A stretch of 3,817 nucleotides of DNA from the IMG/VR virus record IMGVR_UViG_2671180921_000020, positions 1 through 3,817 of that record, one strand, 5' to 3'. A program made the translations under genes and the position numbers. This document shows positions 1 to 3,817 of the stretch, in pieces (position 1 is the first letter of the stretch; each line of letters begins with the position of its first letter). Below the pieces are notes generated by a model. The model saw only the letters and a list, made by a program, of their open reading frames with translations, was not told the DNA's origin and made no database searches. Origin of the DNA: a virus. Taxonomy: Duplodnaviria > Heunggongvirae > Uroviricota > Caudoviricetes.

Positions 1-267
1 GTGAGTGAGTCAAAATGCCAAATTAATGGCAACAAGATAGAACCGTGCGCGGCGCTGGCACAATCTCTGGAGCAGGATGCTGAATACACGACGCGAAAAG
101 GCCTGCTGATATACAAAATCTATAACCATGAATTAATTCATTCACAAGATCTGATCATGCTTCGGTCTGGTGAATTTTCTAAATCACCGATTCGAGTTTC
201 ATTTTGTCCGTTCTGTGGTAAGAGTCTGAAAACATGGGAAAAGGAGACAACCAGTGGGCAAGATTGA
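1..267 (+). CDS. Hypothetical phage protein, 5'-truncated C-terminal fragment, with a possible Cys-pair (zinc-ribbon-like) motif
   Basis: Open frame runs from base 1 to TGA at 265-267 with no in-frame ATG until about codon 53, so the true start is probably upstream of the window. Contains C-x9-C (KCQINGNKIEPC) and CPFC pairs. The next ORF begins 14 nt before its stop, preceded by an AAGGAG RBS. Confidence 0.55.
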   Translation: MSESKCQINGNKIEPCAALAQSLEQDAEYTTRKGLLIYKIYNHELIHSQDLIMLRSGEFSKSPIRVSFCPFCGKSLKTWEKETTSGQD

Positions 268-670
268 CTATCAGGCACTGCGTGGGGCGGCAGAGCAGGC
301 AATGCATGACGACTGGGGATTTGACGCGGACCTTTTCCATGAGCTGGTAACACCATCGATTGTGCTGGAACTGCTGGATGAACGGGAAAGAAACCAGCAA
401 TACATCAAACGCCGCGACCAGGAGAACGAGGAAATTGCGCTAACGGTAGGGAAGTTGCGCGTTGAGCTTGAGGCAGAAAAACAGCGTGCAAAGGATCTGT
501 TTATGGAAAATGCTCGGCTTAAGTCAGGTATAGCCGGTCTGATACACCTCGGTATTCGATATGCAGATGTTGAGGTCATGAGAATTGCTGGAGATGCCCA
601 GCTTTCTACCCCATGCACTGACAGCATCATAAACAGCATTGCAACAGGCATTCGCATCAAAGGAGAGTGA
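254..670 (+). CDS. Hypothetical phage early protein with coiled-coil segment; possibly Ead/Ea22-like
   Basis: GTG start at 254 lies 7 nt after AAGGAG (241-246). 138-aa ORF with a heptad-like charged segment (ELEAEKQRAKDLFMENARLK). The N-terminus (IDYQALRGAAEQA...W) resembles, from memory, the N-termini of Ead/Ea22-like proteins. Its stop at 668-670 is 1 nt before the next start. Confidence 0.6.
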   Translation: MGKIDYQALRGAAEQAMHDDWGFDADLFHELVTPSIVLELLDERERNQQYIKRRDQENEEIALTVGKLRVELEAEKQRAKDLFMENARLKSGIAGLIHLGIRYADVEVMRIAGDAQLSTPCTDSIINSIATGIRIKGE

Positions 671-1040: not shown

Positions 1041-1399
1041 TTAATCGAACCAAACTGGAGCACATCCTCGAGTATGCCAGGCAGCAGAGGCGCTTTGGCC
1101 AGCTTTGTAAAATTCTGCCAGGAGATATGGTTGAAATCGTGGAGATTGCCATGCGTAAGACTGGCAACTCTCCGGTAACTCCGGATGGTTGGATAAGCTG
1201 TAGTGAGCGAATGCCAAACGATAAACAGTATGTTTGGTGTTGGGGGAAGTCTTACGGCTGGACTGAGTGCGATACCTTCGAAGGGTATTACGATTGGTCG
1301 AGAAACAAATGGTGGGCAATTACTGACGATGGGGAAGAACCGGCATCGAAAGTAACCCACTGGATGACGCTATCGGAGCCACCGCAGGAGGTGAAGTGA
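1037..1399 (+). CDS. DUF551-like phage protein
   Basis: 120-aa ORF whose ATG at 1037 overlaps the upstream TGA (ATGA). Trp-rich C-terminal region (GWISCSERMP...YVWCWG...WW...VTHWMTLSEPP) matches the motif I recall for DUF551 phage proteins. AGGAGG (1386-1391) is embedded near its 3' end for the next gene. Confidence 0.6.
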   Translation: MINRTKLEHILEYARQQRRFGQLCKILPGDMVEIVEIAMRKTGNSPVTPDGWISCSERMPNDKQYVWCWGKSYGWTECDTFEGYYDWSRNKWWAITDDGEEPASKVTHWMTLSEPPQEVK

Positions 1400-1683
1400 T
1401 GGACTCCTTCGCGAAATATACGATTATTGACTGGGTAGCCTTCCTTCAGGTTTTGCTCATCTGGTTTTATATGGCTTACAGGAGTGGACAGTGGATTGTC
1501 AGTGTAGCCTGTAGCAAGGGATGGCGTTGGTGGAACCGAAAGAATAAAAAAGCGCTGGCCTTGGATTCGTTTTACGAAGCATTCAATCTTAACAGCCTTC
1601 AGCCTGGTTCTGTCGTTGTAGTCACCACTCAAAGCGGCATGACGATACAAATTCACAAGCCAAAGGAGGAAGGTCGTGGCTAA
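1399..1683 (+). CDS. Small single-pass membrane protein (94 aa), hypothetical
   Basis: ATG at 1399 overlaps the upstream stop (TGATG), 7 nt after AGGAGG. Residues ~8-28 (YTIIDWVAFLQVLLIWFYMAY) form an ~20-residue hydrophobic stretch followed by a basic cluster (RWWNRKNKK), consistent with an N-out/C-in membrane helix. The track start at GTG 1396 is also possible. Confidence 0.55.
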   Translation: MDSFAKYTIIDWVAFLQVLLIWFYMAYRSGQWIVSVACSKGWRWWNRKNKKALALDSFYEAFNLNSLQPGSVVVVTTQSGMTIQIHKPKEEGRG

Positions 1684-1957
1684 CCTGCAACTTGCCGTTA
1701 AAGGTGAATACTTCGATGCCATGATTCGAGGAGAGAAAACGGAAGAGTATCGCCTGTGTAATGACTACTGGAATAAGCGAATTATGTTCCGGGAGTATGA
1801 CCGCCTGATTATCACAAAGGGATATCCGAAGCGCGACGACTCCAGTCGCAGAATTGATGTTCCGTATGGAGGATATGAAGTGAAAACAATCACACCCCCC
1901 CACTTCGGTGATAAGCCGGTAAAGGTATACGCGATAAAGGTGAATATCAATTGCTAA
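1676..1957 (+). CDS. ASCH/PUA-like domain protein (putative), 93 aa
   Basis: GTG at 1676 lies 6 nt after AGGAGG (1664-1669) and overlaps the upstream stop by 8 nt. The N-terminal segment LAVKGEYFDAMIRGEKTEEYR resembles the ASCH-domain beta-strand/GxK motif as I recall it. Ends TAA at 1955-1957, last gene of the coupled chain. Confidence 0.5.
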   Translation: MANLQLAVKGEYFDAMIRGEKTEEYRLCNDYWNKRIMFREYDRLIITKGYPKRDDSSRRIDVPYGGYEVKTITPPHFGDKPVKVYAIKVNINC

Positions 1958-1981
1958 ATTAGTGGCATAGCATAAAGATGC

Positions 1982-2006
1982 TTGCATTAATGAAGTGTGT
2001 ATAATA
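1982..2006 (+). promoter_or_regulatory. Candidate sigma70-type promoter for the AT-rich-island ORF
   Basis: Perfect TATAAT hexamer at 2000-2005, immediately preceded by TGTG. TTGCAT at 1982-1987 is -35-like but only 12 nt upstream, which is a suboptimal spacer. Lies in AT-rich intergenic DNA about 65 nt upstream of the ORF start. Confidence 0.35.
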
Positions 2007-2071
2007 ACACCTAATCAATAGTAAACTACTGAAATAGCAAAAAAAAATGCATATTAAAGAGGATTCGAAAA

Positions 2072-2263
2072 TTGAAAATGTTCATGCAAATAGACAGACG
2101 CATAGATATTAATGGCAATTCATACTTAGTTAGATGCGAAGAGAGGCCTAACGGTGAGTGGCGTGTATATGATATTGACCGTAAGGTCAATATCAGCACC
2201 ATGAACAAAGACACTGCCTTTGATGAATGGAAAGCTGAAGCTAAAAAACAACATAATTCGTAG
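2072..2263 (+). CDS. Small hypothetical protein (61-63 aa) in an AT-rich island; moron-like
   Basis: ORF ending TAG at 2261-2263. Candidate starts are TTG 2072, ATG 2078 and ATG 2084, downstream of AAGAGGA (2057-2063). AT-rich codon usage contrasts with flanking genes. Flanked by a promoter-like element upstream and a hairpin plus T-tract downstream. Confidence 0.5.
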   Translation: MKMFMQIDRRIDINGNSYLVRCEERPNGEWRVYDIDRKVNISTMNKDTAFDEWKAEAKKQHNS

Positions 2264-2305
2264 AATTACAAAAACCCTAACCAATTGATGGATTTCTTTT
2301 ATCTG

Positions 2306-2330
2306 AACTCGCTACGGCGAGTTTTGTTTT
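2306..2330 (+). terminator. Rho-independent terminator candidate
   Basis: Perfect 7-bp stem AACTCGC (2306-2312) / GCGAGTT (2317-2323) with a 4-nt loop TACG, followed by TTGTTTT (2324-2330). Confidence 0.5.
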
Positions 2331-2343
2331 ATGGAGATGATAA

Positions 2344-2511
2344 ATGCACTTCCGAGTTACAGGTGAATGGAATGGAGAACCATTCAACAGAGTTATCGAA
2401 GCAGAGAACATCAATGACTGCTATGACCACTGGATGATATGGGCGCAGATAGCACATGCAGACATAACCAATATTCGAATTGAAGAACTGAAAGAACACC
2501 AAGCCGCCTGA
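2344..2511 (+). CDS. Small hypothetical protein (55 aa), not in the supplied ORF track
   Basis: ATG at 2344 lies 7 nt after GGAG (2333-2336) and directly follows an in-frame TAA. Translation: MHFRVTGEWNGEPFNRVIEAENINDCYDHWMIWAQIAHADITNIRIEELKEHQAA. Stop TGA at 2509-2511 falls inside the loop of the downstream terminator hairpin. Occupies the position immediately upstream of xis. Confidence 0.5.
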   Translation: MHFRVTGEWNGEPFNRVIEAENINDCYDHWMIWAQIAHADITNIRIEELKEHQAA

Positions 2512-2526
2512 TGGCGGCTTTTTCTT
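2501..2526 (+). terminator. Rho-independent terminator immediately upstream of xis/pI
   Basis: 8-bp GC-rich stem AAGCCGCC (2501-2508) / GGCGGCTT (2513-2520) with loop TGAT, followed by a T-rich tract TTTTTCTT (2519-2526). Confidence 0.65.
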
Positions 2527-2565
2527 GCGTGTAATTGCGGAGACTTTGCGATGTACTTGACACTT
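2525..2565 (+). promoter_or_regulatory. pI-type CII-dependent promoter with CII recognition repeats TTGC-N6-TTGC
   Basis: TTGC at 2525-2528 and 2535-2538 separated by 6 nt (GTGTAA) is the canonical lambda CII site architecture. The surrounding sequence matches lambda pI as I recall it. A weak -10 is expected around 2551-2557, so the transcript would start inside xis. Confidence 0.7.
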
Positions 2566-2769
2566 CAGGAGTGGAACGCACGCCAGCGACGCCCAAGAAG
2601 CCTTGAAACAGTTCGTCGATGGGTGCGCGAATGCAGGATATTCCCTCCTCCGGTTAAGGATGGAAGAGAGTATCTGTTCCACGAATCAGCGGTAAAGGTT
2701 GACTTAAATCGACCAGTAACAGGTAGCCTTTTGAAGAGGATCAGAAATGGGAAGAAGGCGAAGTCATGA
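2551..2769 (+). CDS. xis: Excisionase Xis (lambda-type, 72 aa)
   Basis: Protein MYLTLQEWNARQRRPRSLETVRRWVRECRIFPPPVKDGREYLFHESAVKVDLNRPVTGSLLKRIRNGKKAKS matches lambda Xis as I recall it. GGAG RBS sits 8 nt upstream, and the 3' end overlaps the int start by 23 nt as in lambda. Confidence 0.9.
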   Translation: MYLTLQEWNARQRRPRSLETVRRWVRECRIFPPPVKDGREYLFHESAVKVDLNRPVTGSLLKRIRNGKKAKS

Positions 2770-3817
2770 GCGCCGGGATTTACCCCCTAACCTTTATATA
2801 AGAAACAATGGATATTACTGCTACAGGGACCCAAGGACGGGTAAAGAGTTTGGTTTAGGCCGAGACAGGAGGATAGCAATCACTGAAGCAATACAGGCCA
2901 ATATTGAGTTATTTTCAGGACACAAACACAAGCCTCTGACAGCGAGAATCAACAGTGATAATTCTGTTACGTTACATTCATGGCTTGATCGCTACGAAAA
3001 AATCCTCGCCAGCAGAGGAATCAAGCAGAAGACACTCATAAATTACATGAGCAAAATTAAAGCAATAAGGAGGGGGCTGCCTGATGCTCCACTTGAAGAC
3101 ATCACCACAAAAGAAATTGCGGCAATGCTCAATGGATACATAGACGAGGGCAAGGCGGCGTCAGCCAAGTTAATCAGATCAACACTGAGCGATGCATTCC
3201 GAGAGGCAATAGCTGAAGGCCATATAACAACAAACCCGGTCGCTGCCACTCGCGCAGCAAAATCAGAGGTAAGGAGATCAAGACTTACGGCTGACGAATA
3301 CCTGAAAATTTATCAAGCAGCAGAATCATCACCATGTTGGCTCAGACTTGCAATGGAACTGGCTGTTGTTACCGGGCAGCGAGTTGGTAATTTATGCGAA
3401 ATGAAGTGGTCTGATATCGTAGATGGATATCTTTATGTCGAACAAAGCAAAACAGGCGTAAAAATTGCCATCCCTACAACATTGCATGTTGATGCTCTCG
3501 GGATATCAATGAAGGAAACACTTGATAAATGCAAAGAGATTCTTGGTGGAGAAACCATAATTGCATCTACTCGTCGTGAACCGCTTTCATCCGGCACAGT
3601 ATCAAGGTATTTTATGCGCGCACGAAAAGCATCAGGTCTTTCCTTCGAAGGGGATCCGCCTACCTTTCACGAGTTGCGCAGTTTGTCTGCAAGACTCTAT
3701 GAGAAGCAGATAAGCGATAAGTTTGCTCAACATCTTCTCGGGCATAAGTCGGACACCATGGCATCACAGTATCGTGATGACAGAGGCAGGGAGTGGGACA
3801 AAATTGAAATCAAATAA
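2747..3817 (+). CDS. int: Site-specific tyrosine recombinase, lambda integrase Int (356 aa)
   Basis: Full-length ORF starting MGRRRSHERRDLPPNLYIRNNGYYCYRDPRTGKEFGLGRDRR (lambda Int N-terminal arm-binding domain) and ending ...SDTMASQYRDDRGREWDKIEIK. Catalytic residues are at lambda positions (R212 codon 3380-3382, HELR at H308/R311, Tyr342 codon 3770-3772). TAA stop at the last bases of the window. Confidence 0.93.
   Translation: MGRRRSHERRDLPPNLYIRNNGYYCYRDPRTGKEFGLGRDRRIAITEAIQANIELFSGHKHKPLTARINSDNSVTLHSWLDRYEKILASRGIKQKTLINYMSKIKAIRRGLPDAPLEDITTKEIAAMLNGYIDEGKAASAKLIRSTLSDAFREAIAEGHITTNPVAATRAAKSEVRRSRLTADEYLKIYQAAESSPCWLRLAMELAVVTGQRVGNLCEMKWSDIVDGYLYVEQSKTGVKIAIPTTLHVDALGISMKETLDKCKEILGGETIIASTRREPLSSGTVSRYFMRARKASGLSFEGDPPTFHELRSLSARLYEKQISDKFAQHLLGHKSDTMASQYRDDRGREWDKIEIK

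What the first reader, a model, noticed from the sequence alone, without database searches (positions are those of the whole stretch)
2525..3817. Lambda-type xis-int module; attP/attL and sib expected immediately beyond the window
Xis and Int are recognisably lambda-type, and the 23-nt overlap and pI architecture are conserved. In lambda the attachment site and the sib retroregulation hairpin lie directly downstream of the int stop, which is the last base here. If this is a prophage, the phage-host junction is probably within a few hundred bp downstream. The upstream accessory genes do not look like lambda's ea22/ea8.5 arrangement, so the module boundary of this mosaic phage seems to lie upstream of about 2340-2500.
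Basis: partly seen in the sequence, partly recalled or inferred. Interest (0 to 1): 0.4.

Follow-up and report, generated by a model that had tools for sequence, protein, structure and literature searches.

The report
Phage lambda integration module, ordinary prophage
This stretch is the textbook excisionase-integrase gene pair of phage lambda, almost letter for letter, at the end of a prophage inserted at lambda's classic site in the E. coli chromosome; it is ordinary and already fully explained.

Summary
The two genes overlap by 23 nt. The cII box of promoter pI (TTGCGTGTAATTGC, 2525-2538) lies in a stretch (2519-2591) identical to lambda.

Lambda DNA homology covers 2290-3817 (97.6%, no gaps) and includes a 55-aa ORF (2344-2511) that lambda also has. 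The breakpoint is at 2289/2290. There, lambda's ea8.5 is replaced by an AT-rich island holding a 63-aa ORF.

Two near-identical public contigs (99.95% over the whole window; 100% over 1829-3817) extend the sequence. After the int stop come 88 nt identical to lambda's P' arm and 15-bp core, then E. coli DNA, with ybhC starting 134 nt after the int stop. This is attL at lambda's attB. The outermost arm site, P'3, already overlaps the last four bases of the window.

sib is not downstream. In a complete related prophage it sits with the P arm at attR, 41.7 kb away, as prophage permutation predicts.

Across prophages the integration module is exchanged at 2524/2525, just after the terminator that follows the 55-aa ORF.

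Already known; low interest.

The parts
2290..3817 (+). Block collinear with phage lambda 29339-27812 (orf55, pI, xis, int)
   Evidence: 97.6% identity, 36 mismatches, no gaps. The homology starts at 2290, in the 3' half of a hairpin that lambda and STEC383 carry complete.
2344..2511 (+). 55-aa ORF, homologue of lambda lambdap35 (NP_597778.1); function unknown
   Evidence: 54/55 identical to the lambda ORF. Matches phrog_676, function unknown; no Pfam or NCBIfam match.
2501..2524 (+). Terminator-like hairpin (8 bp, 6 G-C) plus T-run; the orf55 stop codon is in its loop. Population-level left boundary of the integration module.
   Evidence: Found by the terminator scan. Folds at -15.4 kcal/mol, z = -3.5. 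Prophages with other integration modules are identical up to 2524 and diverge from 2525 on.
2525..2538 (+). cII recognition box TTGC-N6-TTGC of promoter pI
   Evidence: The only such match in the window. It lies in 2519-2591, which is 100% identical to lambda. That pI is cII-activated and lies in xis comes from PMC5300877 and PMC2951348. A -10 near 2552-2557 and a start near 2564 are my inference from spacing and recalled lambda literature.
2551..2769 (+). xis, excisionase (recombination directionality factor), 72 aa
   Evidence: 71/72 identical to lambda Xis. Pfam Exc, E = 3.9e-41. PDB 1pm6 and 1lx8.
2747..2769 (+). 23-nt xis/int overlap
   Evidence: ORF coordinates. The geometry is the same as lambda 28860-28882.
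2747..3817 (+). int, lambda-type tyrosine integrase, 356 aa
   Evidence: 352/356 identical to lambda Int. R212, K235, H308, R311, H333 and Y342 are all present. Pfam arm-binding, core-binding and catalytic domains. PDB 5j0n and 1z1g.
3814..3817 (-). First four bases (ATAA) of arm-type Int site P'3, which overlaps the int stop codon; the rest of attL lies beyond the window
   Evidence: In L014 (99.95% identical to the window) the arm-type matches AAATCATTAT, CAGTCAAAAT and AGGTCACTAT lie at 4210-4240 on the minus strand, and L014 4213 corresponds to window 3817. The sequence is identical to lambda.
1958..2289 (+). AT-rich (about 33% GC) island with a 63-aa ORF (2072-2263) that takes the place of lambda ea8.5. 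Not part of the module; it marks the module's left limit relative to lambda.
   Evidence: Composition. No lambda match. Present in 1 of 50,697 phage records and 30 of 5426 E. coli genomes. Matches phrog_16329, function unknown.

Best explanation
This is the site-specific recombination module of phage lambda itself (pI, xis, int and the start of attL), at the int end of a lambdoid prophage integrated at lambda's attB, between ybhC and ybhB of E. coli. The surrounding genes suggest a P22-like prophage.

How it works is taken from lambda and not tested here.

- Int is a heterobivalent tyrosine recombinase. It binds arm-type sites through its N-terminal domain and core sites through its central and catalytic domains, and it exchanges strands within the 15-bp core.
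- Xis bends the P arm and directs the reaction towards excision.
- During establishment of lysogeny, cII activates pI. Its box is at 2525-2538, and transcription starts a few codons into xis. That transcript encodes Int without Xis.
- After induction, antiterminated pL transcripts read through the hairpins at 2305-2324 and 2501-2520 and encode both proteins.
- In the free phage, sib beyond attP triggers RNase III-dependent decay of pL-derived int message. In the prophage, sib is at the other end (attR), so the pL transcript yields both Int and Xis for excision.

Shown here: the sequence identity, the intact catalytic residues, the conserved pI box, attL and the host junction in near-identical contigs, and sib at attR in a related complete prophage. 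Inferred: activity of the promoter and the proteins, and that the window's own source is integrated.
For: - Int is 352/356 and Xis 71/72 identical to lambda.
- DNA is 97.6% identical to lambda over 2290-3817 with no gaps.
- The catalytic residues R212, K235, H308, R311, H333 and Y342 are unchanged. So are residues 99, 282, 283, 287 and 319, recalled from the literature as core-specificity determinants.
- Pfam finds the arm-binding, core-binding and catalytic domains, and Exc for Xis. The PDB search returns lambda Int and Xis structures.
- The cII box is unique in the window and sits in a stretch identical to lambda.
- All six displayed contigs carrying exactly this Int protein have ybhC 134 nt downstream. 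L014 matches the whole window at 99.95% and L016 matches 1829-3817 at 100%.
- The 88 nt after the int stop are identical to lambda's P' arm and core, and host DNA follows. P'1-P'3 are found as three adjacent arm-type matches.
- In STEC383 the P arm and a sib hairpin identical to lambda's lie at attR beside ybhB.
- The regulatory logic is as stated in PMC5300877 and PMC2951348.
Against: - The window stops at the int stop codon. Its own downstream sequence is not seen, and integration is inferred from near-identical contigs.
- No contig shows the whole prophage of this exact mosaic. L014 begins 398 nt upstream of the window, so whether the prophage is complete or encodes a cII is unknown.
- Four Int substitutions (H164P, D215N, A245T, I248V) and one Xis substitution (G59S) have not been tested for activity. 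D215N is three residues from the catalytic R212.
- No record in the phage or E. coli complete-genome collections covers 80% or more of the window.
Confidence: 0.95

Rival explanations
1. The window comes from a free (virion or circular) phage genome, not a prophage. In that case complete attP (P'OP) and the sib hairpin would follow within about 275 nt, as in lambda.
For: The window ends at the int stop, so nothing in it distinguishes attP from attL. In lambda the core lies 74-88 nt and the sib hairpin about 234-275 nt past the int stop. Phage genomes with this module exist, for example vB_EcoP-720R6 and HK106.
Against: All six places shown (out of 24 contigs read) that carry this exact Int protein have attL followed by ybhC. 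These include a 99.95% match to the whole window and a 100% match to 1829-3817. No phage record covers 80% or more of the window.
Confidence: 0.05
2. The module is a relic in a defective ('grounded') prophage. The genes look intact, but the element can no longer excise because attR, cII or other functions are missing.
For: The closest contigs break inside the prophage: L014 starts 398 nt upstream of the window and L016 starts at window 1829. Related loci L005 and L010 keep orf55 and a small RDF-like gene but have no integrase before host csc genes, which shows that decay happens in this region.
Against: xis, int, the pI box and attL carry no frameshift, stop or indel relative to lambda. In int, 21 nucleotide differences from lambda change only 4 codons, the pattern expected under purifying selection. 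Contig breaks in draft assemblies are commonly caused by repeated prophage sequence (general experience, not tested here). A related complete prophage (STEC383) has both att ends and a full P22-like gene set.
Confidence: 0.2
3. The integrase has a different site specificity (HK022-like or new) in spite of its lambda-like appearance.
For: There are four amino-acid substitutions relative to lambda Int. The lambda and HK022 integrases are close relatives that differ in core specificity (recalled knowledge).
Against: HK022 is only about 84% identical in DNA. Residues 99, 282, 283, 287 and 319 are the lambda residues (their role is recalled from Dorgai, Yagil and Weisberg 1995). The prophages carrying this exact protein sit at lambda attB with the lambda core TTAGTATAAAAAAGC at the junction.
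Confidence: 0.01

Closest known systems
Bacteriophage lambda int-xis-attP module (NC_001416 27583-29104; Int PDB 1z1g/5j0n, Xis PDB 1pm6/1lx8)
   Same: Gene order, gene lengths (72 and 356 aa) and the 23-nt overlap. The cII box of pI, the upstream 55-aa ORF and its terminator hairpin. The P' arm and core in the extended contigs, and the integration locus (ybhC | prophage | ybhB). Int is 99% and Xis 99% identical in protein; DNA is 97.6% identical.
   Different: 36 nucleotide differences. Int carries H164P, D215N, A245T and I248V; Xis carries G59S. Upstream of 2290, ea8.5 is replaced by an AT-rich 63-aa ORF island and by P22-type accessory genes (ASCH-type, DUF4752, DUF551). In the integrated form, sib and the P arm are at the far end of the prophage.
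Prophage of E. coli STEC383 (NZ_CP091026.1) and phages vB_EcoP-720R6 / HK106
   Same: All have the lambda-type xis-int-att module (STEC383 98.0% identical over 2290-3817; the phages about 97% over their matched pieces) joined to non-lambda early-left accessory genes (Ead/Ea22, DUF551, DUF4752). STEC383, the only one whose full gene set was examined, also has P22-like morphogenesis genes.
   Different: None carries the 1958-2289 island, and each covers only 53-66% of the window.
Phage HK022 int-xis
   Same: Homologous module with the same organisation.
   Different: Only about 84% identical in DNA, with a different core specificity (recalled knowledge). The window is clearly the lambda type, not the HK022 type.

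Membership tests
Lambda-type heterobivalent tyrosine integrase | Catalytic residues Arg-Lys-His-Arg-His plus the Tyr nucleophile (lambda R212, K235, H308, R311, H333, Y342) | tested here: met
   All six are present at the lambda positions. Pfam Phage_integrase E = 1.8e-40.
Lambda-type heterobivalent tyrosine integrase | N-terminal arm-type DNA-binding domain and central core-binding domain | tested here: met
   PF09003 Arm-DNA-bind_1, residues 1-69, E = 7.1e-33. PF22022 and PF02899 cover residues 81-171. Residues 1-163 are identical to lambda.
Lambda-type heterobivalent tyrosine integrase | Cognate att site next to int, with arm-type sites P'1-P'3 and the 15-bp core GCTTTTTTATACTAA | tested here: met
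   Only 4 nt of P'3 lie in the window itself. In contigs 99.95-100% identical to the window, the 88 nt after the int stop are identical to lambda and contain three adjacent arm-type matches and the core.
Lambda-type heterobivalent tyrosine integrase | Integration at E. coli attB-lambda between the gal and bio regions (ybhC / ybhB) | tested here: met
   ybhC starts 134 nt after the int stop in all six contigs shown that carry the exact Int. In STEC383, bioA-ybhB flank attR.
Lambda-type heterobivalent tyrosine integrase | Recombination activity dependent on IHF, Xis and Fis | not testable with these tools
   Needs in vitro or in vivo recombination assays.
Lambda Xis (Pfam Exc, PF07825) recombination directionality factor | Winged-helix excisionase of about 72 aa encoded directly upstream of int and overlapping it | tested here: met
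   PF07825 E = 3.9e-41. 71/72 identical to lambda Xis. PDB 1pm6 E = 7e-45. 23-nt overlap with int.
cII-activated promoter pI | TTGC-N6-TTGC box flanking the -35 region, with the start site inside xis so that the transcript lacks the xis start codon | tested here: met
   The box is at 2525-2538, and 2519-2591 is identical to lambda. The position of the transcription start is inferred from lambda. Activity and the presence of a cII gene in this phage could not be tested.
sib / tI retroregulation of int | RNase III-sensitive hairpin about 235-275 nt downstream of the int stop, beyond attP | tested here: not met
   In lambda the hairpin is at L001 4319-4359 (-24.3 kcal/mol for the folded segment). 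The attL-side loci have host DNA there and no match to lambda's P arm + sib. In prophage STEC383 the identical hairpin lies at attR. This is the expected prophage arrangement, not a departure from the lambda system.

The most novel reading that the evidence does not exclude
The 55-aa ORF and its terminator (2344-2524) may be a conserved junction piece at which whole integration modules are swapped between lambdoid and P22-like phages of E. coli and Salmonella. Three different modules abut it at exactly the same base (2524/2525):

- lambda xis-int;
- a 211-aa gene plus a 387-aa Int beside tRNA-Arg(tct);
- a 66-aa RDF-like gene.

The uncharacterised 55-aa protein might also have a role of its own in integration or excision control. 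The evidence shows the shared breakpoint but says nothing about function. Such boundary sequences are already part of the modular theory of phage evolution.
Probability: 0.1. Interest if true: 0.3.

Novelty: already known. Interest (0 to 1): 0.07.

Why it matters
It matters little beyond annotation. The result fixes the window as the int end of a prophage at attB-lambda. It places the phage-host junction 74-88 nt past the window end. It also gives base-precise mosaic boundaries: 2289/2290 relative to lambda, and 2524/2525 relative to phages with other integration modules. One point is useful for anyone annotating prophages: sib should be sought at attR, not next to int. The only mildly interesting by-products are the unannotated AT-rich 63-aa ORF island and the shared module-swap point after the orf55 terminator.

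Tried and rejected
- The Rfam scan of the window at E <= 1 gave only a chance-level hit (asX2, 20.5 bits against a gathering score of 70) on the minus strand at 2501-2606. No known RNA family was found.
- The simple terminator scan did not detect lambda's sib/tI hairpin because its stem is long and imperfect. I located it by reading the sequence and folding it instead.
- The sigma-70 scan found fewer promoter-like sites than in shuffles (3 against 7.2) and did not flag pI. That is expected for an activator-dependent promoter with poor hexamers.
- Arm-type consensus matches over the whole of L014 are no more frequent than chance (15 against 12.6). Only the three adjacent, lambda-identical sites next to the int stop are meaningful.
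- NCBIfam gave nothing for orf55, the 63-aa ORF, the ASCH-like ORF, Xis or the RDF-like protein of L005. PHROGs gave only 'unknown function' families for the accessory ORFs.
- I tried to judge whether the 63-aa ORF is under selection by comparing it with L004. The two are 100% identical there, so the comparison is uninformative.
- The Casjens and Hendrix lambda review (PMC4424060) is not held in the library, and the GenBank lambda records carry no pI or sib features. The pI start site and the residue roles therefore rest on recalled literature.
- HK022-type specificity was considered and rejected (about 84% DNA identity; lambda core at the junction).

Full report
**1. What is in the window.**
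All sizeable ORFs lie on the + strand in a tight array.

| Coordinates | Product | Assignment |
|---|---|---|
| 1-267 | 88 aa | phrog_4030, function unknown |
| 254-670 | 138 aa | Ead/Ea22 family |
| 672-1040 | 122 aa | unknown |
| 1037-1399 | 120 aa | DUF551 |
| 1396-1683 | 95 aa | DUF4752 |
| 1676-1957 | 93 aa | annotated 'ASCH domain-containing' in related E. coli records |
| 2072-2263 | 63 aa | inside a 33% GC island |
| 2344-2511 | 55 aa | homologue of a lambda ORF |
| 2551-2769 | 72 aa | xis |
| 2747-3817 | 356 aa | int |

Family assignments are, and composition. The int stop codon is the last base of the window.

**2. Check of the observation.**
- Int is 352/356 identical to lambda Int, and Xis is 71/72 identical.
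- The Int substitutions are H164P, D215N, A245T and I248V; the Xis substitution is G59S.
- All six catalytic residues are present: R212, K235, H308, R311, H333 and Y342.
- Pfam finds the lambda arm-binding domain, the core-binding domain and the catalytic domain in Int, and Exc in Xis.
- The PDB sequence search returns the lambda Int and Xis structures.
- xis and int overlap by 23 nt (2747-2769), exactly as lambda 28860-28882.
- TTGCGTGTAATTGC, the TTGC-N6-TTGC box recognised by cII at pI, is the only such match in the window, at 2525-2538. It lies in a stretch (2519-2591) with no difference from lambda.

**3. Extent of the lambda homology.**
BLASTN against lambda gives one ungapped block, window 2290-3817 = lambda 29339-27812, at 97.6% identity with 36 mismatches. 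The block includes the 55-aa ORF, which lambda also carries (lambdap35, 54/55 identical).

The breakpoint at 2289/2290 falls inside a hairpin. Lambda and E. coli STEC383 have it complete (AATCCTCGCACTCGCGGGGATT); the window keeps only its 3' half. Upstream, lambda's ea8.5 is replaced by the AT-rich island 1958-2289.

Further upstream, window 253-481, covering the 5' end of the Ea22-family gene, is 92% identical to lambda ea22. The region is therefore mosaic rather than wholly unlike lambda.

In int, 21 nucleotide differences change only four codons. Seven synonymous differences cluster at 2854-2902. The last 240 nt of int are identical to lambda.

**4. What lies beyond the window.**
Looking up the exact Int protein found it on many contigs. 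All six places shown have a pectinesterase-family gene (ybhC) starting 134 nt after the int stop.

L014 (GCA_047972925.1) matches the whole window at 99.95%; the only difference is two fewer A in a poly(A) run at 2039-2040. L016 matches 1829-3817 at 100%.

Aligned with lambda, the 88 nt after the int stop are identical to lambda's P' arm and the 15-bp core (read here as TTAGTATAAAAAAGC). The sequences then diverge into E. coli DNA, AGGCTTCAACGG... leading to ybhC. This is attL (BOP') at lambda's attB.

Three adjacent arm-type matches give P'3, P'2 and P'1 at L014 4210-4240. L014 4213 corresponds to window 3817, so P'3 (AAATCATTAT) overlaps the int stop codon. The att site therefore begins in the last four bases of the window.

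**5. sib.**
In lambda the sib/tI hairpin (ATTAGCGCAAGGTGATTTTTGTCTTCTTGCGCTAAT followed by T6) lies about 234-275 nt past the int stop, beyond the P arm. Lambda's P arm + sib segment has no match in any of the attL-side loci.

In the complete genome of STEC383, a P22-like prophage of about 42 kb carries the same integration module. Its int-side end reads int, attL, ybhC. Its other end reads bioA, ybhB, then B'-core, the P arm (88% identical to lambda) and a sib hairpin identical to lambda's, 41.7 kb from int.

This is the classical permutation. sib acts on int only in the unintegrated phage (regulation as summarised in PMC5300877 and PMC2951348).

**6. Module boundaries in the population.**
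The 63-aa ORF was found on many contigs, of two kinds.

- In one set (L003-L009), window 1675-2527 is 96% identical. A 211-aa gene and a 387-aa integrase beside tRNA-Arg(tct) and a fimbrial operon follow it. I infer these are Salmonella prophages at argU/fimU.
- In L005 and L010, window 1162-2538 is 98.9% identical. A 66-aa RDF-like gene follows, and there is no integrase before host csc genes.

All three types are identical through the orf55 terminator hairpin and its T-run, and they diverge from window 2525 on. The exchangeable integration cassette thus starts at 2525, which is the first base of the cII box and also the finding's start coordinate. The orf55 piece belongs to a different, more widely shared segment.

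**7. Mechanism.**
Shown here:
- sequence identity to lambda;
- intact catalytic residues;
- conserved pI box;
- the attL junction in near-identical contigs;
- sib at attR in a related complete prophage.

Taken from established lambda biology (PMC5300877 and PMC2951348 for the regulation; recalled primary literature for the binding sites):
- cII-activated pI starts inside xis and gives Int alone, for integration.
- N-antiterminated pL transcripts read through the two hairpins (2305-2324 and 2501-2520) and give Xis plus Int, for excision.
- sib destabilises pL-derived int message only when it is contiguous with int in attP.

The -10 near 2552-2557 and a transcription start near 2564 (lambda about 29065) are my inference from spacing and memory.

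**8. Comparison and novelty.**
This is not merely like lambda's module; it is a natural allele of it. HK022-type modules are about 84% identical.

No phage record or complete E. coli genome covers 80% or more of the window. The particular mosaic of accessory genes is therefore individual, which is normal for lambdoid phages. The verdict is 'already known', with low interest.

**9. Caveats.**
- Completeness of the prophage and activity of the variant proteins are untested.
- The roles of Int residues 99, 282, 283, 287 and 319, and the pI start site, rest on recalled literature and not on a tool result.

Noticed in passing
window 1958-2289 (ORF 2072-2263): An AT-rich (about 33% GC) island with a 63-aa ORF (phrog_16329, function unknown) sits where lambda has ea8.5. 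It occurs in only 1 of 50,697 phage records and 30 of 5426 complete E. coli genomes, and RefSeq annotates no feature under it there. Window 2049-2357 is 100% identical to prophages L003-L009 (inferred Salmonella, beside tRNA-Arg and a fimbrial operon), while the flanks differ by 3.5-7%. This suggests a recently exchanged, moron-like cassette.
   Followed up: partly
window 2501-2525; L003 and L005 about 10430-10460: Three different integration modules abut the same orf55 terminator, with homology ending at exactly the same base (2524/2525): lambda xis-int; a 211-aa gene plus a 387-aa Int at tRNA-Arg(tct); and a 66-aa RDF-like gene.
   Followed up: partly
L005 10498-11228 and L010 10133-10863: After orf55 comes a 66-aa RDF-like gene (from memory it resembles TorI of KplE1; no family match in NCBIfam). 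About 530 bp without an integrase follow, and then host csc sucrose genes. This looks like a prophage that has lost its integrase.
   Followed up: no
L001 4043-4083 (lambda 27814-27854) = window 3775-3815: Both lambda GenBank records annotate the Int-binding region 'int 4' inside the int coding sequence. By sequence, the P'1-P'3 arm-type sites lie at lambda 27785-27815, and there is no arm-type match in 27816-27854. The record's coordinates look shifted by about 40 nt.
   Followed up: partly
L018 (E. coli STEC383 NZ_CP091026.1 3444700-3486920): A complete prophage of about 42 kb with P22-like head, portal, tailspike and DNA-transfer genes uses the lambda xis-int-att module. Its P arm is only 88% identical to lambda, but its sib hairpin is identical.
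   Followed up: partly
window 2039-2040: The only difference between the window and contig L014 over 3817 nt is the length of a poly(A) run upstream of the 63-aa ORF: the window has two more A. It could be an assembly or sequencing artefact, or slippage.
   Followed up: no
window 3777-3804 (+): A sigma-70-like match (ATGACA-16-CAAAAT, 9 of 12) inside the 3' end of int points out through attL towards ybhC. The same match exists in lambda. The scan as a whole found fewer sites than shuffles, so it may be chance.
   Followed up: no
window 254-670: The Ea22-family gene is chimeric relative to lambda ea22. Window 253-481 is 92% identical and the last 27 nt (647-673) also match, but the middle and the length differ: 138 aa against 182 aa in lambda.
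   Followed up: no
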